Notes: generated by a model not told the origin, from the letters alone. DNA of 46,977 nt from Acidimicrobiales bacterium (GCA_035708905.1 DASTFE010000225.1:1-46977); one strand, 5' to 3'; counted from the stretch's first letter, positions 2,115 to 42,942 are shown. Program-made: numbers and translations.

Positions 2115-2133
2115 ATCTGACGTCGCGTCAGAT
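2115..2133. promoter_or_regulatory. Palindromic operator candidate, family ATCTGAC-N5-GTCAGAT (site A)
   Basis: ATCTGAC GTCGC GTCAGAT, with perfect 7-8 bp arms. On the minus strand it is preceded by and overlaps a -10-like TAGAAT (CCGTAGAATCTGAC...), upstream of the SDR gene 1183-2094. Confidence 0.65.
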
Positions 2134-2176
2134 TCTACGGGGCCGCAGGTGGGGGCCACGAATCCGCGCCGGGGGA

Positions 2177-2635
2177 TCAGAAGCCCTCGACCGCGGCCAC
2201 CACCTCGGCGGCGACCTCGACCTCGGTGCGTTCGAGGGCGATCGACACCACCCGGATCACGGCCAGCGTCGTGAGCCAGGCGCCGAACAACGCCCGCTCG
2301 GGGCCCAGCTCGGCGACCACGCCCTCGACCGGCGGGCGCACGCCCCCGGCGGTCGCCGCCGCCAGCGTGAGCATGCGGGCCAGGATGTCGATGTTGTCGG
2401 CGGGCACCGCCCCGTCGAGCGCCAGGCGGTCGAGCAGCTCGACCTGGTCGAAGGCCTCGTCGGTCTCGGCCACCATCCGCCGCAGCGCCACCGCCGCGCT
2501 GTCGAGCAGGCCCCCGGTCAACTCGTCGGCGCCGAGGTCGGCGACCGCGTTGCGCAGCACGAGCGCCGCCTGCGCCGGCTCGTGCTCGATCACCTGCGTC
2601 TCGATGGCCTCGCGGAGCGCGTCGGGGAGATCCAT
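2177..2635 (-). CDS. Hypothetical protein (acidic, Ala/Leu-rich, helical)
   Basis: 152-aa ORF with genome-typical GC3 and non-repetitive composition (MDLPDALREAIETQVIEHEP...). I recognise no motif. Confidence 0.6.
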   Translation of the reverse strand: MDLPDALREAIETQVIEHEPAQAALVLRNAVADLGADELTGGLLDSAAVALRRMVAETDEAFDQVELLDRLALDGAVPADNIDILARMLTLAAATAGGVRPPVEGVVAELGPERALFGAWLTTLAVIRVVSIALERTEVEVAAEVVAAVEGF

Positions 2636-2661
2636 GGCCGCGCAGCCTAGGTTGAACGGGC

Positions 2662-3135
2662 GTGCCGGTCCGCGAGCCCGTCGTCGTCACCTTCCACGAG
2701 CAGCACCGCGCGCCGGTCGTGGCCCGCATGGTGGCCATGACCGAGGCCCGCGCCGGCTGGATCAACCTCTCGCCCGGGCTCGACGTCGACGTGCCGCCAC
2801 CCCGGTCGGCCCTGGCCTCGCTGTTCTCGGGCCGGGGGCCGGCGGTGCCGCTGGGCACGTGGTACCCGGCACGGCGCCGCGATCCCACGATGGTGGGCAT
2901 CGAGCACGGTCAGGGGCCGGGTGCGCTCGACCTGCTGGCCGACCGGGGCCTGCCGTTGCCCGACGGCTGGCGCCGGCTGCAGGACCACGCCAAGCGCGGC
3001 CTCGTGCTCGTCCCCTCCCCCGCCGCCGGGCCCGCCGAGCTCGACGCCGTGCTCGACTGGTTGCTGCGAGCGGCCGGTGCCCTGTGCCCCGTGCCCCGCA
3101 CGGGCGAGTGGCGGGCCTACTGCTACGAGCCCTGA
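2662..3135 (+). CDS. Hypothetical protein
   Basis: 157-aa ORF with a GTG start, coding-like composition (...GWINLSPGLDVDVPPP...GEWRAYCYEP). Its 3' end overlaps the convergent acyl-CoA synthetase by 13 nt. The start is uncertain; internal Met codons are possible. Confidence 0.5.
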   Translation: MPVREPVVVTFHEQHRAPVVARMVAMTEARAGWINLSPGLDVDVPPPRSALASLFSGRGPAVPLGTWYPARRRDPTMVGIEHGQGPGALDLLADRGLPLPDGWRRLQDHAKRGLVLVPSPAAGPAELDAVLDWLLRAAGALCPVPRTGEWRAYCYEP

Positions 3136-4736
3136 GCGGCCTTCTCGGCCACGTCGCGGGCCCAGCGGTAGTCGGCCTTGCCCGAGGGCGACCGGACGAC
3201 GGCGTCGACCAGCACCAGCCGCTTGGGCGCCTTGTAGCCGGCCAGCGTGGCCTTGCAGTGCGCGGCGAGGTCGTCCAGCGTCGGGGCGGTGCCGGGCACC
3301 GGCTGCACCACGGCGGCCACGGCCTGGCCCCACCGGTCGTCGGGCACGCCCACCACCAGGCAGTCGTAGACGGCCGGGTGGCCCTTGAGCGTGCCCTCGA
3401 CCTCCTCCGGGAACACCTTCTCGCCCCCGGTGTTGATGCTGACCGAGCCCCGGCCGAGCAGCTCGATCGCCCCGTCGGCCCCGACCGAGGCCATGTCGCC
3501 CGTCACCAGCCACCGCTCGCCGCCGCGCTCGACGAAGGTGGCAGCGGTGGCGACCGGGTCGTTGTAGTAGCCCAGCGGCAGGTGTCCGCCGGCCAGCACC
3601 TGGCCCACCACGCCCGAGCCGGGCTCGACCTCGTCGCCGTCGAGGTCGACGACGATCGTGGGCTTGGTGGGCTGGTCGAAGCGCACCAGGCTCGCCCCGG
3701 CCGGCCGCTCGCCCGCCGCCACCCGCATCGCCCCCTGCGCGCCCGCCTCGGACGAACCGAAGCCGTCGGTCACCATCACGTGCGGCAGCGAGGCGAAGAT
3801 CCGCTCGCGGGTGCTGGCGGCCATGGGCGCGCCGCCGTTGGACACCGAGAACAGCGACGACGCGTCGTGGCCGCGCCCCTCGGCGGCCGCCGCATCCCAG
3901 GCGTCGAGCAGCGGCCGGGCCACGGCGTCACCCACCACGGTCAGCATGTTCACCTTCTCGGCCGCCACGGTGCGCCACACGGCGTCGGGGTCGAGCGAGC
4001 CGGGCATCAGCACGACCTTGCTGCCGGCGAAGAGCCACGAGAGGGTGGTCCACTGGGCGGCGGCGTGCATCATCGGCGCCAGCGGCAGGTAGCAGAGGGG
4101 TTGGTCGAGGATGCGGGCCGGCAGCTCGTCGGGACGCTCGACCGGGCCCTGCATGCGCATCGGGTCGCCGCCGCCGATGCAGGCGTAGAAGGCGTCGACG
4201 TGGCGCCACACGACGCCCTTGGGCAGCCCCGTGGTGCCACCCGTGTAGATGATGTAGTGGTCGTCGTCGCCCCGGCCGTCGACGACCGGGCGGTCTGCCG
4301 GGGCGGCGGCCAGCACCGCGTCGAGCTCGTCGCCGGTCACCAGGGTGAAGCGCAGGCCGGGCAGCTCGGCCGCCACCGCGGCCACGGTGTCGCGCAGCGA
4401 CGGCTGCGTGATCACCGCCACCGCGTCGCTGTTGTCGAGCAGGTGGTCCAGCTCGTCGGCGACGTAGCGGTGGTTGACGTTGATGGTGACGGCGCGCAGC
4501 TTCCAGGCCGCCAGCATGGCCTCGACGTACTCGGCGCAGTTCTCGAGGTAGAGGGCGACGTGGTCGCCCGGCCCGATGCCCCGGCCGGCCAGGTGGTGCG
4601 CCAGCCGGTTGGCCCGCTCCTCGAGCTGCGCGTAGCTGCGCCGCTGGTCGCCCACGACCAGCGCCTCGCGCTCGGGCACCGCGTCGGCCGCCATCTCCCA
4701 CACGTCGGCCATGTTGAACGTGCGGGGCACGGTCAT
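3123..4736 (-). CDS. Acyl-CoA synthetase / AMP-dependent ligase (FadD-like)
   Basis: Starts MTVPRTFNMADVWE. AMP-binding motifs IIYTGGTTGLPKGV, TGDMASV, GGEKVFPEEVE, and the C-terminal PSGKADY lysine. Its ATG (4734-4736) overlaps the upstream LLM stop (ATGA). The 868-aa track ORF is this gene plus out-of-frame read-through. Confidence 0.92.
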   Translation of the reverse strand: MTVPRTFNMADVWEMAADAVPEREALVVGDQRRSYAQLEERANRLAHHLAGRGIGPGDHVALYLENCAEYVEAMLAAWKLRAVTINVNHRYVADELDHLLDNSDAVAVITQPSLRDTVAAVAAELPGLRFTLVTGDELDAVLAAAPADRPVVDGRGDDDHYIIYTGGTTGLPKGVVWRHVDAFYACIGGGDPMRMQGPVERPDELPARILDQPLCYLPLAPMMHAAAQWTTLSWLFAGSKVVLMPGSLDPDAVWRTVAAEKVNMLTVVGDAVARPLLDAWDAAAAEGRGHDASSLFSVSNGGAPMAASTRERIFASLPHVMVTDGFGSSEAGAQGAMRVAAGERPAGASLVRFDQPTKPTIVVDLDGDEVEPGSGVVGQVLAGGHLPLGYYNDPVATAATFVERGGERWLVTGDMASVGADGAIELLGRGSVSINTGGEKVFPEEVEGTLKGHPAVYDCLVVGVPDDRWGQAVAAVVQPVPGTAPTLDDLAAHCKATLAGYKAPKRLVLVDAVVRSPSGKADYRWARDVAEKAAQGS

Positions 4737-32909: not shown

Positions 32910-33923
32910 GTGCCGTACACCGTCGACCTGGTGCTGTCCGGCCTGCGCCTGCGGCACAAGCGAGCCCACGCCCTGCTGGTGAGCGACTTCGTGAGCTGGG
33001 CGCGCGTCGAGTTCCTCGGCGCGGCGGCCTCCACCGGGGTGCTCGCCGGCCTGGTCGAGCCCCGCACGGTGGACGAGCTCGCCGGCGACCTCGGCGTCAC
33101 CGACCGGGGACTGCTCGGTGCGCTGCTGCACCTGGGCGAGTCGGTCGGCGAGCTGGCGGTCGACGGCGACCGGTGGCGGCTGGCCGGGTCCCGGTCGCGG
33201 GCCATGGTCGACCCCGCCGTCGACGGCCTGGCGGCGCTGCCCGAGGAGGCGGTGCTCTACGGCACCGACGTGTACCGGCGCCTGGCCGAGCGCCTGCGGG
33301 GAGGGGCCCCGGGCGACTACCTCGACGACCACGGCGAGCTGGTCGCCCGCACGTCCCGGGTGGCCGAGCCCATCTTCGGTCCCCTGATCGCCGACGTCGT
33401 GCGCGCCCACCGGCCGGCCTCGGTGCTCGAGGTCGGGTGCGGCTCGGGCGTCAACCTGCGGCACGTGGCGGCCGCCTCGGCCGACGCCACGGGCGCGGGC
33501 ATCGACGTCGATGCCGGTGTCGTCGAGCTCGCCCGGCGCAACCTCGACGCCTGGGGCCTGGCCGGCCGGTTCCGGGCCGAGCACGGCGACGTCCGCCACC
33601 TCGGCGACGACATGGCGGGTCCGTGGGACCTCGTGCTGCTGTTCCAGAACATCTACTACTTCCCCGTCGCCGAGCGCCCCGAGCTGCTCCGCCGGCTGCG
33701 GTCGCTGGCGCCCGCCGGCGTCGTCGTGATCGCCACGGCCGTGGCCGGCACGGGAGACCCGGCCGCCGCCCACCTCGACGTGGTGCTGCGCTCGACGGCC
33801 GGAAACACGCCGCTGCCGACCGTCGCCGAGCTGCGGGCCGACCTGGCCGGCGCCGGCTTCGCCACCGTGACGGCGCGGCGCCTGGCCCCGCGGCAACCGC
33901 TGCGGGCGTTCGTGGCGCGCTGA
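32910..33923 (+). CDS. SAM-dependent (O-)methyltransferase with N-terminal winged-helix/dimerisation-like region
   Basis: SAM motif I VLEVGCGSGVN, then GIDVD, then LVLLFQNIYYF. About 130 aa of N-terminal helical domain. The GTG 32910 start is tentative; the stop at 33921-33923 is secure. Confidence 0.75.
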   Translation: MPYTVDLVLSGLRLRHKRAHALLVSDFVSWARVEFLGAAASTGVLAGLVEPRTVDELAGDLGVTDRGLLGALLHLGESVGELAVDGDRWRLAGSRSRAMVDPAVDGLAALPEEAVLYGTDVYRRLAERLRGGAPGDYLDDHGELVARTSRVAEPIFGPLIADVVRAHRPASVLEVGCGSGVNLRHVAAASADATGAGIDVDAGVVELARRNLDAWGLAGRFRAEHGDVRHLGDDMAGPWDLVLLFQNIYYFPVAERPELLRRLRSLAPAGVVVIATAVAGTGDPAAAHLDVVLRSTAGNTPLPTVAELRADLAGAGFATVTARRLAPRQPLRAFVAR

Positions 33924-33945
33924 CCGGCCCGGATAGCGTCCGGCG

Positions 33946-34389
33946 ATGCACGCCGACCGCTTCGCTCCCCTGCCGGCCGACGTCGCCGCCCGCTGGCGCA
34001 GGTTCCCCCACTGGGACCGCACCTACTTCCCCAACCTGGTCGGCCTCCAGGTCGAGGAGCTGCGCACCGACTACTGCCGGATGCGGCTGCCCTACCGGCC
34101 CGAGCTCGAGCAGCCGGCCGGGGTCGTGCACGGCGGCGCCATCGCCACCCTGATCGACACGGTGGTCGTCCCCGCCGTGGGGGCGGCGTACGACCCGGAC
34201 TGGATCTACGTGACGCTCACGATGGACATCCAGTACCAGGGGGCCGTGGTCGGTGAGGACGCGGTCGCCGAGGGTTGGGTCACCCAGCGGGGACGGTCGA
34301 TCGTCTTCTGCCGGGCCGAGGTGACGACCGAGAGCGGCCGGCAGGCGGCGTCCGGCACCCTGACCTACAAGGTGGGCCCGCCTCGCTGA
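33946..34389 (+). CDS. PaaI/hotdog-fold acyl-CoA thioesterase
   Basis: 147 aa. GVVHGGAIATLIDTVV and RGRSIVFCRAEV are typical of PaaI/4HBT-type thioesterases. TAGCGT lies 6 nt before the ATG. Confidence 0.85.
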   Translation: MHADRFAPLPADVAARWRRFPHWDRTYFPNLVGLQVEELRTDYCRMRLPYRPELEQPAGVVHGGAIATLIDTVVVPAVGAAYDPDWIYVTLTMDIQYQGAVVGEDAVAEGWVTQRGRSIVFCRAEVTTESGRQAASGTLTYKVGPPR

Positions 34390-34427
34390 CGGCCCTCCGG
34401 TCGAGCCGCACGGCGGTAGCTGCCACG

Positions 34428-35549
34428 ATGAGGGCCATGACCGCCGCTGCCCACGAGTCGTCCCCCTCGCCCGGCTGGCTGCTGGACGAGACGGCCAGCG
34501 CCGGGCGCGAGAACCTCGACGCCGACCACGTCGCCCGGGCCGCCGTGGCCTCAGGCCGCGGTGCCGGTACGGTCACGCCCGTGGCCAAGGCTCCGGCGAC
34601 CGAGGTGCAGGTGGGCGGGCGCACCGTGCGGATCTCCAACCCGGACCGGGTGTACTTCCCCGCCACGGGGGCGACCAAGCTCGACCTGGTCGACTACTAC
34701 CTGGCGGTCGGGCCGGGCATCGTCAACGCCCTGCGCGAGCGGCCCTGCATGATGCACCGCTTCCCCACCGGGGTCAGCGGCGAGAAGGTCCACCAGAAGC
34801 GCGTGCCCGCCGGGGCGCCGCCGTGGCTCGAGACCGTGCGGGTCCACTTCCCCCGCTACGGGCAGCACGCCGACGAGCTGTGCGTGACCGAGCTGGCCCA
34901 CGTGATCTGGGCGGTGCAGATGTCGACCGTCGAGTTCCACCCGTGGAACTCCCGGCGGGCCGACGTCGAGAAGCCGGACGAGTGGCGGATCGACCTCGAC
35001 CCCATGCCGGACTGCCCGCTCGCCACCGTCCGCCGGGTGGCCGAGGTCGTGCACGAGGTGCTGGACGAGCTCGGGGCGGTGGGCTGGCCCAAGACCTCCG
35101 GCGGCAACGGGATCCACGTCTACGTGCGCATCGAGCCGTCGTTCGGGTTCGCCGACGTGCGCCGCGCCGCGCTGGCGTTCGCCCGCGAGGTCGAGCGCCG
35201 GGCGCCGGACGCGGTGACGACCACCTGGTGGCGCAAGGACCGCGACCCCACCGCGGTGTTCGTGGACTACAACCAGAACGCCCGCGACCACACCATGGCC
35301 GCGGCGTACTCGGTGCGCGGCCTCCCCGAGGCCACGGTGTCGACGCCGATCACGTGGGACGAGGTCGACGCCGTCGAGCCGGGCGACTGCACCATTGCGA
35401 CCGTGCCCCGGCGCTTCGCCGAGGTCGGCGACCTCCACGCGGGCATCGACCGCGCCACCTTCGCCATCGACGAGCTGCTCGAGTGGGCCGAGCGTGACGA
35501 GCGCGCCGGCGCGGTCGACGCCGGCGAACCGGACGACCAGCAGGGCTGA
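34428..35549 (+). CDS. Stand-alone LigD-type primase-polymerase (PolDom) protein
   Basis: RISNPDRVYFP..TKLDLVDYY, FPTGVSGEKVHQKR, EFHPW, WRIDLDP (metal Asp pair), KTSGGNGIHVYV, VDYNQNARDHT. The ~55-aa N-terminal extension means the start is uncertain. Confidence 0.85.
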   Translation: MRAMTAAAHESSPSPGWLLDETASAGRENLDADHVARAAVASGRGAGTVTPVAKAPATEVQVGGRTVRISNPDRVYFPATGATKLDLVDYYLAVGPGIVNALRERPCMMHRFPTGVSGEKVHQKRVPAGAPPWLETVRVHFPRYGQHADELCVTELAHVIWAVQMSTVEFHPWNSRRADVEKPDEWRIDLDPMPDCPLATVRRVAEVVHEVLDELGAVGWPKTSGGNGIHVYVRIEPSFGFADVRRAALAFAREVERRAPDAVTTTWWRKDRDPTAVFVDYNQNARDHTMAAAYSVRGLPEATVSTPITWDEVDAVEPGDCTIATVPRRFAEVGDLHAGIDRATFAIDELLEWAERDERAGAVDAGEPDDQQG

Positions 35550-35571
35550 CTCACCGGCCACACTGGCGGGC

Positions 35572-37188
35572 GTGACCGACGACCGAGCAGTGCGCGCCCG
35601 CTACGACGTGGTGGTGGTCGGCGGGGGGCACAACGCCCTCGTCGCCGCCGCCTACCTGGGACGGGCGGGGCGGTCGGTGTGCGTGCTCGAGCGGGCCGAC
35701 CAACTGGGCGGCGCGACGGTGAGCGGCCAGGTGTTCCCCGGCGTCGACGCCCGGCTGTCCCGCTACTCGTACCTGGTCAGCCTGCTGCCCGACCGCATCG
35801 TCGCCGACCTCGGGCTCCGCGTGGCGCTCGCGTCCCGCCCGGTGGCCTCGTTCACGCCGGTGCGCCGCGGCGCCGAGCACCTCGGGCTGCTGGTCGAGCG
35901 CGACCCCGGGCCGGCGACCGCCGAGTCGTTCCGGGCGCTCACCGGGTCCGACGACGAGTACGCCGCCTGGCGGGCGTTCTACGACGACACCGCCCACCTG
36001 GCCCGGGTCGTGGCCCCGACCCTGCTCGAGCCGCTGCCGCCCGCGGCCGAGATGCGCCGCCGCGTCGGCGGCGCCCTGTGGGACCGGCTCGTCGCCCGCC
36101 CGATCGGCGAGGCGATCGAGGCCACCTTCCGCGACGACACGGTCCGCGGCGTGGTGCTGACCGACGCCCTCATCGGCACGTTCGCCTCGGCCCACGAGCC
36201 CGACCTGCGCCAGAACCGGTGCTTCCTGTACCACGTGATCGGCAACGGCACCGGCGAGTGGCGCGTGCCGGTGGGCGGGATGGGGGCGGTGACGGCCGAG
36301 CTCGAGCGGGCCGCCCGGGCCGCCGGCGCCGACCTGGTGACGGGGGCCGAGGTGGTGGGCGTCGAGACCGACGGCCGCGAGGCGGCGGTGACCTGCCGGC
36401 ACCGCGGCGACGAGCGCGTCGTGGCCGGCTCGTACGTGCTCGCCGGGGTGGCGCCCGCCGTGCTCGACCGGCTCCGCGGTCGAGCGGCCACGTCGCCCGA
36501 GGGTGCGCAGATGAAGATCAACATGGTGCTCGACCGGCTGCCGCGCCCGCGCAGCGGCCACGACCCGGCGCTGGCGTTCGCCGGCACGCTGCACGTCGAC
36601 GAGGGATACGCGGCGCTCGAGGCCGGTCACGCGGTGGCCGCCCGGGGCACCCTGCCCGACCCGCTGCCCGGCGAGGTGTACTGCCACACGCTCACCGACC
36701 CGTCGATCCTGTCGCCCGAGGCGGCCGCCCGCGGGGTGCACACCCTCACGCTGTTCGGCCTGCACGCCCCCGCCCGGCTGTTCGCCGGCGACCCGGCGGC
36801 CGCGGACGCCGCGCGCGACGAGGCCACGCGGCGCCACCTCGCCGGACTCGACCGCTACCTCGACGAGCCGATCGCCGACTGCCTCGCCCGCGACGCGGCC
36901 GGGCGACCCTGCGTCGAGGCGGTGAGCCCGTGCGACCTCGAGGCCAGCCTGGGGCTGCCCGGGGGGCACATCTTCCACGGAGACCTGAGCTGGCCCTGGG
37001 CCGGCGACGACCCCGGGGCGCCGCCGGTGAGCGCCGACGGCCGCCCGGACGCCGAGCCGGGGGCGTGGGGCGCCGAGACCGACGTCGCCAACCTGTTCGT
37101 GTGCGGGGCCGGGGCCCGCCGGGGTGGTGGCGTCAGCGGCGTGGGCGGCCACAACGCGGCGATGGCCGTGCTCCGCCGGGCCCGCTAA
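35572..37188 (+). CDS. FAD/NAD(P)-dependent oxidoreductase (phytoene-desaturase/CrtI-like)
   Basis: GTG 35572. Dinucleotide-binding YDVVVVGGGHNALVAAAYLGRAGRSVCVLE...LGG, and the C-terminal FVCGAGARRGGGVSGVGGHNAA. 538 aa. Confidence 0.85.
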   Translation: MTDDRAVRARYDVVVVGGGHNALVAAAYLGRAGRSVCVLERADQLGGATVSGQVFPGVDARLSRYSYLVSLLPDRIVADLGLRVALASRPVASFTPVRRGAEHLGLLVERDPGPATAESFRALTGSDDEYAAWRAFYDDTAHLARVVAPTLLEPLPPAAEMRRRVGGALWDRLVARPIGEAIEATFRDDTVRGVVLTDALIGTFASAHEPDLRQNRCFLYHVIGNGTGEWRVPVGGMGAVTAELERAARAAGADLVTGAEVVGVETDGREAAVTCRHRGDERVVAGSYVLAGVAPAVLDRLRGRAATSPEGAQMKINMVLDRLPRPRSGHDPALAFAGTLHVDEGYAALEAGHAVAARGTLPDPLPGEVYCHTLTDPSILSPEAAARGVHTLTLFGLHAPARLFAGDPAAADAARDEATRRHLAGLDRYLDEPIADCLARDAAGRPCVEAVSPCDLEASLGLPGGHIFHGDLSWPWAGDDPGAPPVSADGRPDAEPGAWGAETDVANLFVCGAGARRGGGVSGVGGHNAAMAVLRRAR

Positions 37189-37206
37189 TCTGACGCTCCG
37201 TCAGAT
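37188..37206. promoter_or_regulatory. Palindromic operator candidate, family ATCTGAC-N5-GTCAGAT (site E)
   Basis: ATCTGAC GCTCC GTCAGAT has perfect arms. It overlaps a -10-like TAATCT (37186-37191) and the stop of the preceding gene. SD GGGAAAGG and ATG 37243 follow. Confidence 0.65.
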
Positions 37207-37242: not shown

Positions 37243-38424
37243 ATGGACTTCGAGTTCTCCGAGGAGCAGCAGCGCTTCCTCGCCGAGGTCGAGGCCTTCC
37301 TCGACGAGCGCCAGACCGTCGAGGTCATGGATCCGACCCGCGAGAACATGGCCCAGATCTGCGACACGCCCGCCCGCCGGGCGTTCATGGCCGAGATCGG
37401 CGAGCGCGGCTGGCTGGGCATGACCTGGCCGAAGGAGCACGGCGGCGCCGAGGGCGACGGCGTGTACGAGTACCTGCTCAACGAGGCGCTGGCCCGGAGG
37501 GGCGCCCCGCAGATCGGCAAGGGCGTCGGCATCATCGGCAAGACGCTCATCCGCTACGGGTCCGACAAGCTGAAGCAGGAGTTCCTGCCCAAGATCCTGC
37601 GCAACGAGGTCGAGTTCGCCGTGGGCTACTCCGAGCCCAACGCCGGCTCGGACGCCGCGAACATGCAGCTGCGGGCCACCCGTGACGGCGACGGCTGGCG
37701 GCTGAACGGCCAGAAGACGTGGACGACGTCGGCCCACTTCGCCGAGTGGTACTGGGTGGGCGCCCGCACAGACCCGGAGGCCCCCAAGCACCACGGCATC
37801 ACGCTGTTCCTGGTGCCCCTCGACGACCCGGGCCTCACCATCCGGCCCATCTGGACGAGGGGGGACGAGCGCACCAACGAGGTGTTCTTCGACGACGTGT
37901 TCGTGCACGACGACTACGTCGTCGGCGAGGTCAACCGGGGGTTCCAGTACATCGCCCAGGCGCTCGACCTCGAGCGCTTCACGATGTTCACCTACAGCCA
38001 GATCGAGGAGCGCATCCGCATCCTCACCGACCACGTGCGCACCGCCACCCGCGACGGCGAGCCGCTCAAGGACGACCCGGTCGTGCGCCGGCGCATCGCC
38101 CACCTGGTCACCGAGGGCGAGGTCGCCCGGGTGCTCGGCCTGCGGTTCGTCCACCGCTCGATGGCCGGTGGCGACCCGCCCCGGGCCGAGGCGTCCGAGT
38201 ACAAGCTGTTCGCCACCGAGCTGTCCAAGCGGGTCGCCGACGCCTCGATGGACATCGGCGGCCCCGGCGCCCAGCTCCGGGTCGGCACCGACGAGGCGCC
38301 CATGGCCGGCCGGGCCGAGTCGACCTACCGCTACACGGTGATCGACACCATCGGCGGCGGCACGTCCGAGGTGCAGAAGAACATCATCGCCACCCGCAAG
38401 CTCGGCCTGCCGAAGAACTTCTAG
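37243..38424 (+). CDS. Acyl-CoA dehydrogenase (candidate catalytic subunit)
   Basis: 393 aa. GYSEPNAGSD, GQKTWTTSA, QALDLERF, IGGGTSEVQKNIIA. Confidence 0.9.
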   Translation: MDFEFSEEQQRFLAEVEAFLDERQTVEVMDPTRENMAQICDTPARRAFMAEIGERGWLGMTWPKEHGGAEGDGVYEYLLNEALARRGAPQIGKGVGIIGKTLIRYGSDKLKQEFLPKILRNEVEFAVGYSEPNAGSDAANMQLRATRDGDGWRLNGQKTWTTSAHFAEWYWVGARTDPEAPKHHGITLFLVPLDDPGLTIRPIWTRGDERTNEVFFDDVFVHDDYVVGEVNRGFQYIAQALDLERFTMFTYSQIEERIRILTDHVRTATRDGEPLKDDPVVRRRIAHLVTEGEVARVLGLRFVHRSMAGGDPPRAEASEYKLFATELSKRVADASMDIGGPGAQLRVGTDEAPMAGRAESTYRYTVIDTIGGGTSEVQKNIIATRKLGLPKNF

Positions 38425-38431
38425 GCGCAGC

Positions 38432-39595
38432 GTGTCCCCCGGCCTGCTCGACGGCGTCACCGTGCTCGACTTCTCCACCGTCGGGCCCGCCACCCGCTGC
38501 ACCAGGCTGCTGGCCGACTACGGCGCCCGGGTGGTGAAGGTCGGCGCGCCGCCGAAGGCGGGGGCCACCGCGCTGGTGCCGCCGTTCCACGCCTACAGCG
38601 GGCAGCGGGGCGTCGAGCGGGCCCGCATCGACCTCAAGGCACCCGCCGGCCGCGACGCCTTCCTGCGGCTGGCCGCCGGTGCCGACGTGGTGATCGAGAG
38701 CTTCCGGCCGGGCGTCGTCGACCGCCTGGGCATCGGCCACGGCGCGGTGCGGGCCGTGAACCCCGGCGTCGTCTACTGCTCGACCAGCGGCTACGGGCAG
38801 ACCGGGCCCTACGCGGGCCGTGCCGGGCACGACATCAACTACCTGGCCGCCGGCGGCTACCTGCACATGTCCGAGCGCGCCGCCGGGGGCCGGCCCCCGC
38901 TGCCCGGCGCCACCGTGGCCGACATCGCCGCCGGGGGGCTGCACGCCGCCGCGGCCGTGCTGGCCGCCCTCGTGCGCCGGTCCCGCACCGGCGAGGGAGC
39001 CCGCCTGGACGTGTCGGTCGCCGACGGCGTGCTGTGGATGCTGTCGCTCTACATCGACGAGTACCTGGCCACCGGCGAGCCGCCGGGCCCGGGGCACTAC
39101 ATCCTCACCGGCCGCTACGCCTGCTACGACGTCTACCCCACCGGCGGGGGCGGGTGGCTGGCGGTGGGCGCCATCGAACCCGACTTCTGGGCCAACCTGT
39201 GCCGCGGCCTCGGCCTCGAGCGGTGGATCGAGCACCAGACCGACGACGCGGTGCAGGATCGCATCCGCGCCGACATCCGGGCCGCGCTGGCGCGGCGCAC
39301 CCGCGACGAGTGGGTCGACCTGCTGGCCGACGCCGACACCTGCGTCGCGCCCGTGCTCGACATCCCCGAGGTGGTCGCCGACCCGCAGTTCGCCGCCCGG
39401 GGCGCCGTCGTGGAGGCCACCCACCCCCACCGTCCCCCCTTCCGCCAGCTCGGGCCGCTGCTCGCCGGCACCCGCCGGCAGGACCGCTACGCGCTGCCCG
39501 ACGCCGCCCGCAGCGACACCGCGGCGCTGCTCGCCGACGCCGGCCTGGGGCGCGACGAGATCGACACCCTGGAGGCCGAGGGCGTGATCGCATGA
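38432..39595 (+). CDS. Family III CoA-transferase, alpha-methylacyl-CoA racemase-like
   Basis: 387 aa, GTG start. LDGVTVLDFSTVGPATRCTRLLADYGARVVKV, VVIESFRPGVVDRLGIG, SGYGQTGPYAGRAGHDINYLA (the GHDINY stretch is characteristic of MCR-type members). Confidence 0.85.
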   Translation: MSPGLLDGVTVLDFSTVGPATRCTRLLADYGARVVKVGAPPKAGATALVPPFHAYSGQRGVERARIDLKAPAGRDAFLRLAAGADVVIESFRPGVVDRLGIGHGAVRAVNPGVVYCSTSGYGQTGPYAGRAGHDINYLAAGGYLHMSERAAGGRPPLPGATVADIAAGGLHAAAAVLAALVRRSRTGEGARLDVSVADGVLWMLSLYIDEYLATGEPPGPGHYILTGRYACYDVYPTGGGGWLAVGAIEPDFWANLCRGLGLERWIEHQTDDAVQDRIRADIRAALARRTRDEWVDLLADADTCVAPVLDIPEVVADPQFAARGAVVEATHPHRPPFRQLGPLLAGTRRQDRYALPDAARSDTAALLADAGLGRDEIDTLEAEGVIA

Positions 39596-40671
39596 CCGCC
39601 GCCGCCGTGCCCGACGAGGTCGCGGGCTGGGTCGGGCAGACCCGCTACCGCGAGACGGCCGACTTCCCGGTCGAGCGGGGCTACATCTGGACCTCGTGCG
39701 CCTCGGTCGAGAACGGCAACCCGCTGTACTGGGACGACGCCGTGGCCGACGAGATCACCGGCGGACCGATCGCCCCGCCCACGACGCTGTCGCTGTGGTT
39801 CCGGCCCCACCACTGGCAACCCGGGGTGACAGCGCAGAAGCTGCCCCTGCAGGTGCACTTCGACCTGAAGGAGCGGCTCGGCCTGCCCGAGGCCATCATG
39901 AGCGACAGCGAGGTCGTGTTCCACGCGCCCGTGCGGCCGGGCGACGTGATCAGCACCGCCCAGGTGCTGCGCTCGCTGAGCGAGCCCAAGACCACCAAGC
40001 TCGGCACCGGCCGGTTCTGGGTGATCGACGTGCCCTACCGCAACCAGCGCGGCGAGCTGGTCGGGGTCGAGACCTTCACCGGCTTCGGCTACGTCCGGGC
40101 GCAGCCGGCCCAGGCCACCCCGACCGCCGAGCGGCCGCCGCGAGCCGGCGCCGTGGACCGCGGCGGTGAGGCACCCGAGGCGCGCTGGACCGCCGGCCGC
40201 GTCGTCCTGTCCGACGTGGCCCCCGGCCACCGGCTGCCCGACCTGCGCCACGACGTGACCGCCACGACCGTGGTGCTGGGCGCGCTGGCCACCCGCGACT
40301 GGCGCCCGATGCACCACGACCGCGACTTCGCGGTCGAGCGCAACGGCGCCCGCGACATCTTCCTCAACACCCCCAACCAGCAGGCCTGGCTCGAGCGCTT
40401 CGCCACCGACTGGACGGGGCCCCGCGGCCGGCCGGGCCGCATCGGGTTCCGCATGCGCGACTCGGTCTACCCCGGCGACACCATGACCATCGGCGGCACC
40501 GTGACCGAGGCCGGCACCGACGCCACGGGCTGCGGCTGGGTCACCGTGGCCGCAGAGGTGCGGGCCGGCGCCGAGACCCGCCTGTGCACCACCGCGACGC
40601 TGCGCGTCGCCCTGCCCACCACGCCCGACGACAACCCCTGGCGCCGCGCCGGCGACCGCTGGGTGCCGTGA
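39592..40671 (+). CDS. Fused double-hotdog MaoC-like (R)-specific enoyl-CoA hydratase
   Basis: ATG overlaps the upstream stop (ATGA). N-terminal hotdog half (GNPLYWDD...), then a Pro/Ala linker, then a C-terminal half with the hydratase-type motif TRDWRPMHHDRDFA. 359 aa. Confidence 0.82.
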   Translation: MTAAAVPDEVAGWVGQTRYRETADFPVERGYIWTSCASVENGNPLYWDDAVADEITGGPIAPPTTLSLWFRPHHWQPGVTAQKLPLQVHFDLKERLGLPEAIMSDSEVVFHAPVRPGDVISTAQVLRSLSEPKTTKLGTGRFWVIDVPYRNQRGELVGVETFTGFGYVRAQPAQATPTAERPPRAGAVDRGGEAPEARWTAGRVVLSDVAPGHRLPDLRHDVTATTVVLGALATRDWRPMHHDRDFAVERNGARDIFLNTPNQQAWLERFATDWTGPRGRPGRIGFRMRDSVYPGDTMTIGGTVTEAGTDATGCGWVTVAAEVRAGAETRLCTTATLRVALPTTPDDNPWRRAGDRWVP

Positions 40672-40698
40672 CACGACAGCCGGGAGGCAACCCGACCC

Positions 40699-41832
40699 AT
40701 GCTTGATCTCGCCTTCACCGACGAGCAGGAGATGCTGCGCGAGGTCGTCCGCACCCTGCTGGCCGAGCACGCGCCGCTCACGGTCGTACGCGCCATGGAG
40801 GACGACCCGGTCGGCTTCCCCGCCGACCTGTGGCGGCGGTTCGCCGAGCTCGACCTGTTGGGCCTGCTGCTGCCCGAGCAGCACGGCGGCTCGGGCATGT
40901 CGCTGCTCGAAGGTGTCGTGCTCTACGAGGAGCTGGGCCGGGCGCTGGCGCCGGTGCCCCACTTCGCCAGCTGCGTGGCCGGCGGCGGCGCCCTGGCCGC
41001 CGGCGGCACCGCCGAGCAGCGGGGCGAGTGGCTGCCCCGGGTCGTTGCCGGCGAGGCGGTGCTCACGCCGGCGTGGCTCGAGCCCGACGGCGGCTTCGGT
41101 CCCCGGGGCGTGCAGGCGCGGGCGACCACGACCGACGGCGCCACCTTCACGATCACCGGCGTCAAGCGCCACGTACCCTTCGCGGCGGCCGCCACCCGGC
41201 TGGTGGTGCTCGCCCGCACGGGCGACGGCGAACGCGAGGTCGACCTGTTCCTCGTCGACCCCCGGGCGGCCGGCGTCACCCTCACGCAGCAGCACACCAT
41301 CGCCTCGGACACGCAGCACCGGGTCGACCTCGACGGCGTCCGGGTGCCCGTGGCCGACCGCGTCGGCGGCGCCGGTACCGGCTGGGCGACGTGGGAGGCG
41401 GTGCGCGACGACGCGCTGGTCCTGCTGGCCGCCTGGGCGGTGGGCGCCGCCGACCGCGCTCAGGAGATCACCGTCCAGTACGCCAAGGACCGCGAGCAGT
41501 TCGGCAAGCCCATCGGCGCCTTCCAGGCCATCGCCCACTACCTGGCCGACCGCCAGACCGAGCTCGACGGGGCCCGCACGCTGGTGCACGAGGCGGCGTG
41601 GGCCCGGGCCGCCGGCCGGCCCGTGGCCCGGCTGGCGCCGATGGCCAAGCTGTTCGCCGCCCGGGTGCTGCGCTCGCTGACCGCCACCGCGCAGCAGATC
41701 CACGGCGGCAACGGGTTCACCCTCGACTACGACGTGCAGCTCTACTTCCGCCGGGCCAAGGCGCTGCAGATCTCCTGGTGGGGTGACCGCGACCTCGAGG
41801 AGCTGATCGCCGCCGACGTGCTCGACGGCTGA
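40699..41832 (+). CDS. Acyl-CoA dehydrogenase-family protein lacking both usual catalytic-base positions (candidate non-catalytic partner)
   Basis: 377 aa, SD GGGAGG. ACAD fold (YAKDREQFGKPIGAFQAIAHYLAD, QIHGGNGF). The C-terminal YEG-type Glu position reads QISWWGD, and the IVD-type position reads RDDAL. Confidence 0.85.
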   Translation: MLDLAFTDEQEMLREVVRTLLAEHAPLTVVRAMEDDPVGFPADLWRRFAELDLLGLLLPEQHGGSGMSLLEGVVLYEELGRALAPVPHFASCVAGGGALAAGGTAEQRGEWLPRVVAGEAVLTPAWLEPDGGFGPRGVQARATTTDGATFTITGVKRHVPFAAAATRLVVLARTGDGEREVDLFLVDPRAAGVTLTQQHTIASDTQHRVDLDGVRVPVADRVGGAGTGWATWEAVRDDALVLLAAWAVGAADRAQEITVQYAKDREQFGKPIGAFQAIAHYLADRQTELDGARTLVHEAAWARAAGRPVARLAPMAKLFAARVLRSLTATAQQIHGGNGFTLDYDVQLYFRRAKALQISWWGDRDLEELIAADVLDG

Positions 41833-41984
41833 CTGCGAGGGCGGCCCGCCACCGCACCTCACAGGCAGGTCAGATGCGCGACAGGTCGTGTTCGCGCAGC
41901 GGTCGCGCGCCGTTGAGCCGCCGGCAACGGTTCCCGCCCATCGTGGTCGACCGAGACCACCGGCGACGAGGAACCGCACGAGAC

Positions 41985-42851
41985 ATGGCTCGACACGAGC
42001 TCTGGGTGGAGCTGGCCGACCGGCCGGGCAACCTGGCCGCGCTCGCGGGCGACCTGGCGGCCTGCGGCGCCAACATCGTCCACCTCGACGTGCACCCCGG
42101 TCCCGGCGACACCGTGATCGACCGCCTCGTGGTCCAGGTGCCCGACCGGCGCAGCGACGAGCTGGCCGAGGTGGCCGAGTGCTACGGGGCCACGCTGCGC
42201 CGCCTCGACGAGGCCGAGCCGCCCGCCGCGCCCGCCGGGGGTGGAGCCGCCGGCCCTGCGACGATGCCGGCGCGCCGGGCGGCACCGCCCGGTCGCCCGG
42301 GTGCCGGCACGCCGCCCCGCCGCCCGCCCATGACCCTCGAGCGGTTGGTGGCGCTCACCGACGGCGGGCTGGTGCGCCTGCGCCACCTGAGCAGCGGCGA
42401 CCGGTCGAGCCTCGTGGCCCACCACCGGCGGTGCTCCGAGCCGACCCGCCGCCACAGCCGCTTCCTGGCGCCCGAGGTGCTGCCCGCGACCGGCGGCGAC
42501 GGGTCGCGCCCCGGGGGCGACGGCCGGCGCGTCGCCCTGGCGGCCCTGGTCGGTGCCGACATCGCCGGGGTCGCCCGCTACGACGTCGACGACGGCGGGG
42601 CGCTGGCCCACCTCGCGGTGGTCGTCGAGGACCGGCACCAGCGGCGGGGCATCGGCGCCCTCCTCGTCGGCGAGCTGGCCGTGCTGGCCGCCAACACCGA
42701 CGTGCGCCACCTGCGGGCCGTCGCCCCGGCCGGCGGCGAGGGGCTGACCCGCACCCTGCGGCGGGCCGGGCTGGCCTTCACCGTCCGGCGCGAGGGCACG
42801 AGCGTGGTGCTCGACTGCGGGCTCCCGCACGGCCTGACCGCGAGCGCCTGA
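41985..42851 (+). CDS. ACT-domain / GNAT acetyltransferase fusion protein
   Basis: N-terminal ACT-like ELWVELADRPGNLAALAGDLAACGANIVHLDV, then a Pro/Ala/Gly linker, then a GNAT core with acetyl-CoA motif A HQRRGIGALLVGEL. The upstream in-frame 37 codons have poor GC3, so ATG 41985 is preferred. Confidence 0.78.
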   Translation: MARHELWVELADRPGNLAALAGDLAACGANIVHLDVHPGPGDTVIDRLVVQVPDRRSDELAEVAECYGATLRRLDEAEPPAAPAGGGAAGPATMPARRAAPPGRPGAGTPPRRPPMTLERLVALTDGGLVRLRHLSSGDRSSLVAHHRRCSEPTRRHSRFLAPEVLPATGGDGSRPGGDGRRVALAALVGADIAGVARYDVDDGGALAHLAVVVEDRHQRRGIGALLVGELAVLAANTDVRHLRAVAPAGGEGLTRTLRRAGLAFTVRREGTSVVLDCGLPHGLTASA

Positions 42852-42911
42852 GCCCGAGCGCCTGAGCCCGAAAGCCTGACCCCCGAGCGCCTGACCGCGA
42901 GCGCCACCGAG
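42831..42911. repeat. Degenerate 14-15-bp tandem repeat (about 5 units, consensus CGAGCGCCTGA(C/G)CC)
   Basis: The CCTGA(C/G) cores sit at 42833, 42847, 42861, 42875 and 42890 (spacing 14,14,14,15). The repeat spans the GNAT stop codon and ends 13 nt before operator site F. Confidence 0.7.
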
Positions 42912-42923
42912 CCGTCACCCAAG

Positions 42924-42942
42924 ACCTGACGACCCGTCAGAC
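42924..42942. promoter_or_regulatory. Palindromic operator candidate, family ATCTGAC-N5-GTCAGAT (site F)
   Basis: ACCTGAC GACCC GTCAGAC keeps the CTGAC/GTCAG core intact. It is followed by N7, TACCGT (42950-42955), N6 and ATG 42962. Confidence 0.6.

What the first reader, a model, noticed from the sequence alone, without database searches (positions are those of the whole stretch)
2115..42942. Seven copies of a 19-bp palindrome (ATCTGAC-N5-GTCAGAT) in front of catabolic operons spread over 40 kb
The sites, read directly from the sequence, are as follows. 2115-2133 is ATCTGAC GTCGC GTCAGAT, before the SDR gene 1183-2094 on the minus strand. 23535-23555 is AATCTGAC ACGGC GTCAGATT, before the amidohydrolase plus acyl-CoA synthetase unit. 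29833-29851 is ATCTGAC GGGTC GTCACAT, before the HMGCS-like/thiolase operon on the minus strand. 31577-31595 is ATCTGAC GGACC GTCACAT, between the GT39 gene and the CoA-transferase operon. 37188-37206 is ATCTGAC GCTCC GTCAGAT, before the fadE-racemase-hydratase-fadE operon. 42924-42942 is ACCTGAC GACCC GTCAGAC, before the crotonase gene 42962. 19730-19748 is CCCTGAC GGACC ATCAGGG, before the TetR gene. Every copy is intergenic and promoter-proximal. The arms are conserved while the 5-nt spacer varies freely, which is the signature of a dimeric HTH repressor site. It matches neither KstR (TnnAACnnGTTnnA) nor KstR2 (AnCAAGnnCTTGnT), and I do not recognise it as any published lipid-regulator operator. 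It would define a regulon tying together otherwise scattered acyl-CoA genes. Caveat: I scanned by eye, so copies inside coding DNA may have been missed.
Basis: seen in the sequence. Interest (0 to 1): 0.85.

Follow-up and report, generated by a model that had tools for sequence, protein, structure and literature searches.

The report
TetR repressor operator, multi-operon regulon
The seven palindromes are real and conserved, and are most likely the binding sites of the TetR-type repressor encoded in the same window, which would switch several acyl-CoA breakdown operons and its own gene on and off; this is an ordinary kind of bacterial control circuit, here in a little-studied group of soil Actinobacteria.

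Summary
Observation confirmed. All seven sites are at the stated coordinates. A weight matrix built only from relatives' sites scores exactly these seven at 22-32 bits; the next best is 8.9 bits. All seven lie in the 3.7% of the window that is intergenic.

The consensus is a-Y-CTGAC-G-nnn-C-GTCAG-R-t, so only the three central bases vary freely, not five.

The sites overlap inferred core promoters. Four lie over the -35/spacer of leaderless genes (TANNNT, 6-7 nt, start codon). Three have the -10 on their left arm.

The motif is kept at orthologous promoters in Acidimicrobiales genomes while the flanks diverge. It tracks the TetR gene 19046-19711 (TetR_N + TetR_C_38):
- It sits directly before the TetR orthologue in 46 loci, down to about 63% identity.
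- It appears with a TetR_C_38 gene in loci found through a target gene, including the isolate Iamia sp. SCSIO 61187.
- It is essentially absent (1 hit in 491 kb) around homologues of the window's other HTH gene (HTH_67).

The arms show no covariation, which argues against an RNA hairpin.

Verdict: an autoregulated TetR repressor, its operator and a multi-operon regulon, analogous to KstR/KstR2 or FadR but with a different motif and no published description found. It is a new member of a known kind, of modest interest. Binding and inducer are untested.

The parts
2115..2133 (.). Operator site 1, ATCTGACGTCGCGTCAGAT. It lies 20 nt before the ATG (2094) of the SDR gene on the - strand. The -10-like TAGAAT (2137-2132, - strand) overlaps its promoter-distal arm, and a GAGGAG Shine-Dalgarno follows.
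   Evidence: 27.5 bits
19730..19748 (.). Operator site 7, the autoregulatory site. In gene orientation it reads CCCTGATGGTCCGTCAGGG, then 5 nt, TAGCCT (19724-19719), 7 nt and GTG 19711 of the TetR gene. This is an inferred leaderless promoter.
   Evidence: 22.5 bits. The same arrangement is found before TetR orthologues in 46 loci.
23536..23554 (.). Operator site 2, ATCTGACACGGCGTCAGAT. It lies 21 nt before the ATG 23576 of the Amidohydro_2 / AMP-ligase unit. The -10-like TAATCT (23534-23539) overlaps the left arm, and a GGGAG Shine-Dalgarno follows.
   Evidence: 29.8 bits. Conserved before Amidohydro_2 orthologues at 18 sites in relatives and in L119-L123.
29833..29851 (.). Operator site 3. 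In gene orientation it reads ATGTGACGACCCGTCAGAT, then 7 nt, TAGCCT (29825-29820), 6 nt and ATG 29813 of the HMGCS-like::OB-fold / thiolase / HTH_67 operon on the - strand. Inferred leaderless.
   Evidence: 22.3 bits. An identical site is present in L002, L012 and L003.
31577..31595 (.). Operator site 4, ATCTGACGGACCGTCACAT, then 7 nt, TAGCCT (31603-31608), 6 nt and ATG 31615 of the CoA-transferase III operon. It is also 78 nt upstream of the probable GTG start (about 31498) of the divergent PMT_2 gene.
   Evidence: (23.7 bits)
37188..37206 (.). Operator site 5, ATCTGACGCTCCGTCAGAT. It lies 36 nt before ATG 37243 of the ACAD / CoA-transferase III / MaoC / ACAD operon. The -10-like TAATCT (37186-37191) overlaps the left arm, and a GAAAGG Shine-Dalgarno follows.
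   Evidence: 32.1 bits. An orthologous site precedes ACAD1 in L043.
42924..42942 (.). Operator site 6, ACCTGACGACCCGTCAGAC, then 7 nt, TACCGT (42950-42955), 6 nt and ATG 42962 of the enoyl-CoA hydratase gene. Inferred leaderless.
   Evidence: 25.8 bits. An orthologous site is present in L003.
19046..19711 (-). Gene for the proposed binder, a 221-aa TetR-family regulator with TetR_N and TetR_C_38 domains.
   Evidence: Pfam. AF2 model pLDDT 89, with EthR, FasR, FadR and DesT as the best fold matches. The HTH region is nearly invariant in 38 orthologues. The motif tracks this gene.
1183..2094 (-). Target: SDR gene. A methyltransferase gene (316-1155) follows on the same strand.
23576..26306 (+). 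Target: Amidohydro_2 (23576-24778) plus AMP-dependent CoA ligase (24816-26306). This is a core regulon member in all relatives.
26301..29813 (-). Target operon: HMGCS-like::OB-fold fusion (28401-29813), thiolase (27199-28398) and the HTH_67/SCO6745-family protein (26301-27179).
31615..37188 (+). Target operon: CoA-transferase III, methyltransferase, 4HBT thioesterase, LigD-type primase-polymerase, FAD oxidoreductase. The genes are tightly packed. How far the transcript runs is inferred.
37243..42851 (+). Target operon: ACAD, CoA-transferase III, MaoC-like hydratase, ACAD and possibly a GNAT/ACT protein.
42962..43789 (+). Target: enoyl-CoA hydratase (crotonase).

Best explanation
**What it is.** The seven palindromes (consensus a-Y-CTGAC-G-nnn-C-GTCAG-R-t) are most likely operators for a homodimer of the TetR-family protein encoded at 19046-19711. 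The half-site centres are 10 bp apart, so the two halves fall one helical turn apart on the same face of the DNA. The HTH of each subunit would read one CTGAC(G) half-site.

**How it represses.** Each operator overlaps an inferred core promoter.
- At the TetR, HMGCS-like/thiolase, CoA-transferase and crotonase genes, the site spans about -38 to -20 of a leaderless promoter. Its promoter-distal half (nTGACG) lies where a -35 element would sit, 18 nt from the -10 at sites 3, 4 and 6 and 16 nt at the TetR site.
- At the SDR, amidohydrolase/CoA-ligase and ACAD operons, the -10 hexamer overlaps the left arm, so the site covers the transcription start.
- Bound repressor would therefore exclude RNA polymerase.
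- By analogy with other TetR proteins, a pathway substrate or intermediate would bind the C-terminal domain, spread the HTHs and release the DNA. This would induce all the operons together with the repressor's own gene. The inducer is plausibly a carboxylic acid or its CoA thioester.

**Shown here.** The sites, their significance, their positions, their conservation and their co-occurrence with the TetR gene.

**Inferred.** The promoters and leaderless starts, binding by this TetR, repression, and the nature of the ligand.
For: 1. **Non-random and exclusively intergenic.** Searches give 6 hits against 0.06-0.48 expected. In one search the relatives-only matrix picks exactly the seven sites at 22-32 bits, the next best is 8.9 bits, and intergenic DNA is 3.7% of the window.
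2. **Promoter overlap.**
   - One search shows TAGCCT or TACCGT 5-7 nt after the site and 6-7 nt before the start codon at sites 3, 4, 6 and 7.
   - It shows TAGAAT or TAATCT on the left arm, followed by a Shine-Dalgarno sequence, at sites 1, 2 and 5.
   - Across all loci, 62 of 83 site-gene pairs at 9-24 nt have a TANNNT ending 5-9 nt before the start codon. My estimate of the chance rate is about 1%.
3. **Phylogenetic footprint.** The motif, the -10 and the start codon are conserved at orthologous promoters in L002, L012 and L003, while sequence upstream of the motif is not alignable by eye.
4. **The motif tracks the TetR.**
   - There are 46 site-TetR pairs, 41 of them with the site 17-22 nt before the called start, down to about 63% identity.
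   - There are 81 exact core matches in 524 kb of TetR-anchored contigs.
   - Contigs anchored on HTH_67 and lacking the TetR have 1 hit of at least 15 bits in 491 kb.
5. **Independent anchor.** Loci were fetched through Amidohydro_2 homologues and were not used for the matrix. All of them carry a TetR_C_38 gene within 8 kb, and all carry 27-31-bit sites at the Amidohydro_2 promoter and at the isochorismatase-...-TetR operon promoter. They include the isolate Iamia sp. SCSIO 61187, CP050948.1.
6. **The protein is a bona fide TetR.**
   - TetR_N scores 27.3 bits against a cut-off of 24, and TetR_C_38 scores 153 bits.
   - The AF2 model has pLDDT 89.
   - Foldseek's best match is EthR (TM 0.72/0.82). 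FasR, FadR from Bacillus and DesT match at TM 0.62-0.64/0.70-0.73, and Thermus FadR only weakly (0.47/0.50). All are lipid- or acyl-CoA-sensing TetRs.
7. **Invariant HTH, invariant core.** Twenty of 24 residues in 43-66 are invariant in 38 orthologues of 68-95% identity. The segment is nearly identical in the 61%-identical Iamia protein. This matches an invariant CTGA/TCAG core.
8. **No covariation in the arms**, and no Rfam family in the window.
Against: - No binding, expression or transcription-start data exist.
- The promoter assignments rest on the actinobacterial TANNNT/leaderless rule. The E. coli-type consensus scan finds nothing at sites 3 and 4.
- Co-occurrence with the TetR is partly built in, because most loci were fetched through the TetR. 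Only and the HTH_67 controls are independent of that.
- Whole genomes could not be scanned, so an unlinked regulator cannot be excluded.
- 30 of the 80 TetR-anchored contigs have no site of at least 15 bits. Most are short or cut at the TetR gene, but a few are longer: L061, L076, L102.
- The window's own isochorismatase/luciferase-like promoter (21248-21333) lacks the site that nearly all relatives have.
- The ligand is a guess.
Confidence: 0.8

Rival explanations
1. The sites are bound by the other HTH protein in the window, the HTH_67/SCO6745-family protein (26301-27179). It is the last gene of the operon behind site 3 and would therefore also be autoregulated.
For: - It carries a domain that Pfam calls helix-turn-helix (PF21863, 264 bits; NCBIfam SCO6745 family).
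- It lies in a site-controlled operon in the window, and the gene is also present near the sites in L002 and L003.
- Its function is unknown, and no structure or paper was found.
Against: - It is absent from all 80 TetR-anchored contigs. That includes L043, where the motif precedes CoAT1, the HMGCS-like gene, AMPb2, ACAD1 and the TetR, and where the thiolase is followed directly by the ligase gene.
- Homologues at 72%, 62% and 61-63% identity (L125, L124, L004, L005, L014) sit in unrelated contexts. The best matrix scores there are 7.9 and -0.8 for L125 and L124, and there are no hits of at least 15 bits in L004-L038 except one at 15.8 bits.
- Loci from Iamia and the other Amidohydro_2-anchored contigs have the motif and the TetR but no HTH_67 gene within 10 kb.
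Confidence: 0.04
2. The palindrome is recognised by some other dimeric regulator encoded elsewhere in the genome, for example a different TetR, or an IclR-, GntR- or CRP-type protein. Its association with this TetR gene would then only reflect the TetR being one of the targets.
For: - Whole genomes could not be scanned, so unlinked regulators are not excluded.
- Most of the co-occurrence data are TetR-anchored.
Against: - The site lies directly on the TetR gene's own promoter in 46 loci. This is the classic arrangement for TetR autoregulation.
- Target-anchored loci always carry the TetR next to the sites.
- The HTH and the core motif are both invariant over the same phylogenetic range.
- The spacing differs from CRP/FNR sites by my own comparison from memory: TGTGA-N6-TCACA is 16 bp, whereas here TCTGA-N7-TCAGA is 17 bp.
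Confidence: 0.1
3. The palindrome acts in RNA, as an 8-bp stem with a 3-nt loop in the 5' leader or between cistrons. It would serve as a processing, stability or attenuation signal.
For: - Each site can fold into a hairpin of -11 to -17.5 kcal/mol.
- Sites 2, 5 and 7 directly follow an upstream gene on the same strand and could be transcribed by read-through.
Against: - There is no covariation. At the variable arm positions the number of pairable sites equals that expected from independent halves: 50 against 46.2, 69 against 65.6, and 66 against 66.9, out of 89 unique sites. The core is conserved as sequence.
- At the leaderless promoters the site lies upstream of the inferred start.
- In L003 a single site lies between two divergent leaderless promoters and would not be transcribed by either.
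- No T-tract follows the stem, and the terminator scan finds nothing at sites 3 and 4.
- There is no Rfam match.
- Hairpin z-scores are modest, from -1.0 to -3.5.
Confidence: 0.03
4. The copies are a chance pattern or a short dispersed intergenic repeat (REP/MITE-like) with no regulatory role.
For: High-GC genomes carry many GC-rich palindromes.
Against: - Shuffles give 0.06 matches against 6 observed.
- There is a 13-bit gap between the seven sites and everything else.
- Only 19 bp are shared, and the flanks are unrelated.
- The distance to start codons is fixed.
- The sites are conserved at orthologous positions across genomes down to 60% protein identity.
Confidence: 0.01

Closest known systems
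KstR and KstR2 (TetR-family repressors of the cholesterol-catabolic regulons of Mycobacterium and Rhodococcus)
   Same: - An autoregulated TetR-family repressor.
- One short palindromic operator repeated in front of many operons of CoA-ligase, ACAD, hydratase, thiolase and CoA-transferase genes spread over tens of kb.
- Operators that overlap promoters.
- Inducers that are pathway CoA thioesters (from established knowledge).
   Different: - The operator sequence differs. CTGACG-n3-CGTCAG does not match TnnAACnnGTTnnA (KstR) or AnCAAGnnCTTGnT (KstR2). None of the seven sites fits either pattern.
- The C-terminal domain family is TetR_C_38.
- The host is Acidimicrobiales.
- No steroid ring-opening genes are present in the window.
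- Separately, the window carries two KstR-type boxes at other promoters.
FadR-type TetR repressors (Bacillus subtilis FadR/YsiA, Thermus thermophilus FadR) and DesT/FasR
   Same: - A TetR fold.
- They appear in the Foldseek list behind EthR. Bacillus FadR, FasR and DesT match at TM 0.62-0.64/0.70-0.73, and Thermus FadR only weakly at 0.47/0.50.
- They control beta-oxidation or lipid genes through palindromic boxes and respond to acyl-CoA.
   Different: - Sequence identity is 13-20%. There is no PDB sequence hit to FadR, FasR or DesT; the hits that do occur (e.g. EthR) cover mainly the N-terminal half.
- The boxes are different.
- The ligand here is unknown.
EthR (Mycobacterium tuberculosis)
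   Same: It is the best structural match to the AF2 model, with TM 0.72 (query) and 0.82 (target), and the best-known PDB sequence match at E about 1e-5. It is a TetR repressor.
   Different: From established knowledge, EthR binds one long operator of about 55 bp cooperatively as a multimer and controls essentially ethA. Here a 19-bp single-dimer-sized palindrome is repeated at seven promoters. Sequence identity is 19%.

Membership tests
TetR family of transcriptional repressors (the proposed binder, 19046-19711) | N-terminal three-helix HTH DNA-binding domain (Pfam TetR_N) | tested here: met
   PF00440 scores 27.3 bits against a cut-off of 24, over residues 31-68. Residues 43-66 are almost invariant in 38 orthologues.
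TetR family of transcriptional repressors (the proposed binder, 19046-19711) | All-helical C-terminal ligand-binding and dimerisation domain, with the overall TetR fold | tested here: met
   TetR_C_38 scores 153 bits. The AF2 model has 8 helices and pLDDT 89. Foldseek top hits are all TetR proteins, with TM up to 0.83.
TetR family of transcriptional repressors (the proposed binder, 19046-19711) | Palindromic operator with half-sites about one helical turn apart, overlapping the regulated promoter and usually the regulator's own promoter | tested here: met
   Half-site centres are 10 bp apart. The sites overlap the inferred -35/spacer, -10 or transcription start. A site lies on the TetR gene's own promoter in 46 loci. 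The promoter positions are inferred, not mapped.
TetR family of transcriptional repressors (the proposed binder, 19046-19711) | Specific DNA binding that is released by a small-molecule ligand | not testable with these tools
   This needs EMSA, DAP-seq and ligand titration.
KstR / KstR2 regulons | Operator matching TnnAACnnGTTnnA (KstR) or AnCAAGnnCTTGnT (KstR2) | tested here: not met
None of the seven sites matches either pattern. The only KstR-pattern matches in the window are at 8437 and 11326, at other promoters. There is no KstR2-pattern match.
Acyl-CoA-responsive TetR repressors (FadR, DesT, FasR type) | Inducer is an acyl-CoA bound in a hydrophobic tunnel of the C-terminal domain | not testable with these tools
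   There is only indirect support. The regulated genes act on CoA thioesters, and the structural neighbours are lipid or acyl-CoA sensors.
Structured RNA element / intrinsic terminator | Base pairing maintained by compensatory changes; for a terminator, a T-tract after the stem | tested here: not met
   Pairing at variable positions equals the expectation from independent halves. There is no terminator-like site at sites 3 and 4, no T-tract in the flanks and no Rfam hit.
CRP/FNR-type site | TGTGA-N6-TCACA-like 16-bp dyad | tested here: not met
   The conserved dyad is CTGAC-N5-GTCAG, equivalent to TCTGA-N7-TCAGA, which is one base wider. The CRP consensus is taken from memory.

The most novel reading that the evidence does not exclude
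The TetR and operator pair may define a previously unrecognised catabolic pathway for an unknown carboxylic acid, widespread in uncultured soil Acidimicrobiales (Iamiaceae-like).
- The conserved core is Amidohydro_2 plus CoA ligase, divergent from an isochorismatase-like / luciferase-like (or ligase/DoxX) / TetR operon.
- In this lineage the regulon would have expanded to include an archaeal-style HMG-CoA-synthase-like::OB-fold plus thiolase pair and beta-oxidation-like operons.
- The orphan-fold SCO6745/HTH_67 protein may act as a second, operon-internal regulator.
- The regulon would be interleaved with a KstR-like regulon in the same 47 kb.
Probability: 0.15. Interest if true: 0.5.

Novelty: new member of a known kind. 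Interest (0 to 1): 0.33.

Why it matters
- It gives a testable regulator-operator pair for TetR_C_38, a Pfam C-terminal domain family for which I found no characterised member and no paper.
- It links about 25 genes in seven transcription units into one predicted regulon, in a class (Acidimicrobiia) with almost no experimentally studied regulation.
- A cultured, fully sequenced relative, Iamia sp. SCSIO 61187, carries the same TetR and sites. Binding, inducer and substrate can therefore be tested directly.
- The consistent arrangement of a -10 hexamer, 6-7 nt and the start codon also suggests frequent leaderless transcription in this group.
- Conceptually it adds nothing beyond the KstR/FadR paradigm.

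Tried and rejected
- **HTH_67 as binder.** Rejected on co-occurrence. Its AF2 model (pLDDT 92.6) has no significant PDB fold match, so structure gave no functional lead.
- **RNA hairpin.** Rejected on lack of covariation and on position.
- **Terminator or E. coli-type promoter consensus scan at sites 3 and 4.** Nothing found. This is uninformative for a 74% GC actinobacterium.
- **Literature searches.** The motif strings, TetR_C_38/PF19352, HTH_67/PF21863 and SCO6745 gave 0 papers. Absence from the held library does not prove the motif is unpublished.
- **PDB sequence search.** The TetR gave only distant hits (e.g. EthR), mainly over the N-terminal half. HTH_67 gave none.
- **Looser pattern.** CTGAC-N5-GTCAG with 2 mismatches is no more frequent than chance: 18 found against 30 expected. 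Only matches with at most 1 mismatch are meaningful.
- **Site at the window's isochorismatase promoter.** Relatives have one there. The window's sequence has degenerated, with about 4 of 10 core mismatches by eye and no matrix hit.
- **Gene calling.** The first Pfam batch failed on a frame error and was redone.

Full report
**1. Observation**

The window is 46,977 bp with 74.4% G+C. ATCTGAC-N5-GTCAGAT with up to 2 mismatches occurs six times, at 2115, 23536, 29833, 31577, 37188 and 42924. Dinucleotide-preserving shuffles give 0.06. The core CTGAC-N5-GTCA marks the same six loci against 0.48 expected. The seventh site, at 19730-19748, has one core mismatch. With two core mismatches the pattern is no longer above chance, at 18 found against 30 expected.

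I built a gene map from third-position G+C and Pfam/NCBIfam. It also shows that all seven site centres are intergenic, and intergenic DNA is 3.7% of the window.

I then built a 23-column weight matrix from 77 unique sites in related contigs, with the window excluded. It scores exactly these seven sites at 22.3-32.1 bits. The next best position scores 8.9 bits, at 10449 inside the MFS gene. No coding copies were missed.

One correction follows from the matrix. The outer spacer positions are G and C in 84% of sites. The consensus is a-Y-CTGAC-G-nnn-C-GTCAG-R-t, and only the three central bases vary freely.

**2. Anatomy**

Read in the direction of the downstream gene, the sites fall into two arrangements.

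- *Sites 3, 4, 6 and 7* (HMGCS-like/thiolase operon, CoA-transferase operon, crotonase, TetR):
  - The order is palindrome, 5-7 nt, a TANNNT hexamer (TAGCCT or TACCGT), 6-7 nt, then ATG or GTG, with no Shine-Dalgarno sequence.
  - This is the arrangement of actinobacterial leaderless promoters (established knowledge from mycobacterial start-site maps).
  - The palindrome would then lie at about -38 to -20. Its promoter-distal half (nTGACG) lies where a -35 element would be, 18 nt from the -10 at sites 3, 4 and 6 and 16 nt at site 7.
- *Sites 1, 2 and 5* (SDR, amidohydrolase/CoA ligase, ACAD operon): TAGAAT or TAATCT overlaps the left arm and a Shine-Dalgarno sequence follows. The palindrome would cover the transcription start.

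Across all loci, site-to-start distances cluster at 17-21 nt. There is a second cluster at 11-12 nt, where the right arm overlaps the -10 (GTCAGATAGGGT, the isochorismatase type). Of 83 site-gene pairs at 9-24 nt, 62 have a TANNNT ending 5-9 nt before the start codon. In 74% G+C DNA I estimate the chance rate at about 1%. An E. coli-type consensus scan finds nothing at sites 3 and 4, so the promoters remain inferences.

**3. Relatives**

*Loci fetched through the HTH_67 protein.*
- The closest genomes are uncultured Acidimicrobiales: L002, L012 and L003.
- In these the motif sits at the orthologous promoters of the HMGCS-like, CoA-transferase, amidohydrolase, TetR and crotonase genes.
- The motif, the -10 and the start codon are conserved there. 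The sequence upstream of the motif is not.
- In L003 a single site lies between the divergent HMGCS-like and CoA-transferase promoters.
- In the window, L002, L012 and L043 another gene lies between two oriented copies of site plus promoter. It is a PMT_2 gene in the window and L043, and an unidentified ORF of about 540-570 aa in L002 and L012.

*Loci fetched through the TetR: 80 metagenome contigs at 58-99% identity.*
- There are 81 exact core matches in 524 kb, nearly all promoter-proximal.
- There are 46 site-TetR pairs, counting the window, L002 and L012. In 41 of them the site lies 17-22 nt before the called start, followed by a TANNNT and a leaderless start, down to about 63% identity.
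- Most TetR-promoter sites in orthologues above about 72% identity carry the variant CTGAT in one arm. More distant orthologues have CTGAC.
- The conserved targets are the TetR itself (46), the Amidohydro_2 gene followed by a CoA ligase (18) and an isochorismatase-like gene heading the operon that ends in the TetR (16).
- The HMGCS-like, CoA-transferase, ACAD and crotonase targets appear in the closer relatives.
- Some divergent regions carry two tandem sites: L085, L091 and L104.

**4. Which protein binds**

Two HTH genes lie in the window. One is the TetR (TetR_N plus TetR_C_38). The other is an HTH_67/SCO6745-family protein, the last gene of the site-3 operon.

*The motif follows the TetR.*
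- HTH_67 is absent from all 80 TetR-anchored contigs. That includes L043, which has the motif at five promoters.
- Contigs anchored on HTH_67 that lack the TetR have one hit of at least 15 bits in 491 kb, against 80 hits in 524 kb for the TetR-anchored set. The latter count is partly circular, because the matrix came from those loci.
- HTH_67 homologues of 72% and 62% identity sit in unrelated contexts, with best scores of 7.9 and -0.8.

*An independent test.* I fetched loci through homologues of the target gene Amidohydro_2.
- All of them carry a TetR_C_38 gene within 8 kb.
- All carry 27-31-bit sites exactly at the Amidohydro_2 promoter and at the promoter of the isochorismatase-...-TetR operon.
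- One of them is the cultured isolate Iamia sp. SCSIO 61187 (CP050948.1). Its TetR is 61% identical to the window's, with a nearly identical HTH.

*The HTH is conserved in step with the motif.* In 38 orthologues, 20 of 24 residues in 43-66 are invariant, in line with the invariant CTGA/TCAG core.

*The protein folds as a TetR.* The AF2 model has pLDDT 89 and is all-helical. It matches EthR best (TM 0.72/0.82). FasR, Bacillus FadR and DesT match at TM 0.62-0.64/0.70-0.73, and Thermus FadR more weakly. Sequence identity to all solved structures is at most 22%.

**5. RNA alternative**

Each site can fold as a hairpin. Four observations argue against an RNA role.
- At the variable arm positions the number of pairable sites equals that expected from independent halves: 50 against 46.2, 69 against 65.6, and 66 against 66.9, out of 89 unique sites.
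- No T-tract follows the stem.
- The window has no Rfam match.
- At the divergent leaderless promoters of L003 the site would not be transcribed at all.

**6. Mechanism proposed**

A TetR dimer binds the 19-bp dyad, whose half-site centres are 10 bp apart. It occludes the -35/spacer, the -10 or the start site of seven transcription units, including its own gene. A pathway metabolite, plausibly a carboxylic acid or its CoA thioester, releases it. The basis for that guess is that the targets include CoA ligases, CoA-transferases, ACADs, hydratases, a thiolase pair and an SDR, and that the structural neighbours sense lipids or acyl-CoAs.

The sites, their significance, their positions, their conservation and their linkage to the TetR are shown. 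The promoters, binding, repression and the ligand are inferred.

**7. Comparison and novelty**

Functionally this is the KstR/KstR2 or FadR paradigm: an autoregulated TetR with one palindrome repeated before many acyl-CoA operons. It is not a member of those regulons.
- The motif fits neither KstR nor KstR2.
- The C-terminal domain family is different.
- No steroid ring-opening genes are present.

Text searches for the motif, TetR_C_38, HTH_67 and SCO6745 returned nothing. Within the limits of the held library, the pair is undescribed. I rate it a new member of a known kind, with interest about 0.33. It is solid and testable, and a cultured relative is available, but it is conceptually ordinary.

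**8. Limits**

- There are no experimental data.
- 30 of the 80 TetR contigs lack a strong site. Most of these are short or truncated at the TetR gene.

Noticed in passing
window 8437-8450 and 11326-11339: There are two identical perfect KstR-type boxes, TAGAACGTGTTCTA (pattern TnnAACnnGTTnnA; 0.02 expected). One overlaps a TAGTCT -10 just before the ALDH / Zn-ADH / luciferase-like / AMP-ligase operon on the - strand. The other overlaps TACAGT, 6 nt before ATG 11351, which is probably the true start of the first Amidohydro_2 gene. The same box recurs in relatives: L057 11867 before an LLM gene, L082 13371, L091 17716 before the Amidohydro_a orthologue, and L065, L075 (three copies), L081 and L116. 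A second, KstR-like regulon therefore seems interleaved with the CTGAC regulon. Its regulator is not evident in the window.
   Followed up: partly
window 26301-27179 (- strand): The HTH_67 (PF21863) / SCO6745-family protein is modelled with high confidence (pLDDT 92.6, pTM 0.90) as an all-helical protein. It has no significant fold match in the PDB (best E 0.32). The only local match is 112 columns at probability 0.87 to chain 5zc2_A, the reductase component C1 of p-hydroxyphenylacetate hydroxylase; from memory, that region is its MarR-like C-terminal domain. There is no PDB sequence hit and no paper. It is abundant in Acidimicrobiales metagenomes and its function is unknown.
   Followed up: partly
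window 29833-31595; L003 7201-7219; L043 1834 and 3451: In L003 one operator serves the divergent HMGCS-like and CoA-transferase promoters. In the window, L002, L012 and L043 a gene lies between two copies of operator plus promoter that keep their orientation (ATGTGAC...GTCAGAT towards HMGCS, ATCTGAC...GTCACAT towards the CoA-transferase). It is a PMT_2 glycosyltransferase in the window and L043, and an unidentified ORF of about 540-570 aa in L002 and L012. This looks like an insertion accompanied by duplication of the regulatory region.
   Followed up: partly
window 21248-21333: The promoter region of the isochorismatase-like / luciferase-like genes lacks the operator that nearly all relatives carry there (for example L002 16948, CCCTGACAGGGCGTCATAT). 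Only a degenerate remnant next to the TAGGGT -10 remains. In this genome the TetR gene keeps its own site and promoter.
   Followed up: partly
window 28401-29813 and 27199-28398 (- strand): An HMG-CoA-synthase-like domain is fused to a ChsH2-type OB-fold (DUF35-like) domain, and a thiolase follows (NCBIfam PRK06157, 595 bits). From memory, this resembles the archaeal thiolase/HMGCS/DUF35 complex, here in a catabolic-looking bacterial operon.
   Followed up: no
window 34386-35549 (+ strand): A LigD-type primase-polymerase gene (PF21686, 313 bits) sits inside the tightly packed CoA-transferase / methyltransferase / thioesterase / FAD-oxidoreductase gene string. This is an odd companion for metabolic genes.
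   Followed up: no
L085 6360 and 6392; L091 7647 and 7678; L104 5346 and 5369; L122 9941 and 9964: In more distant relatives the divergent Amidohydro_2 / isochorismatase region carries two tandem operators with centres 23-32 bp apart. This suggests that two dimers bind there.
   Followed up: no
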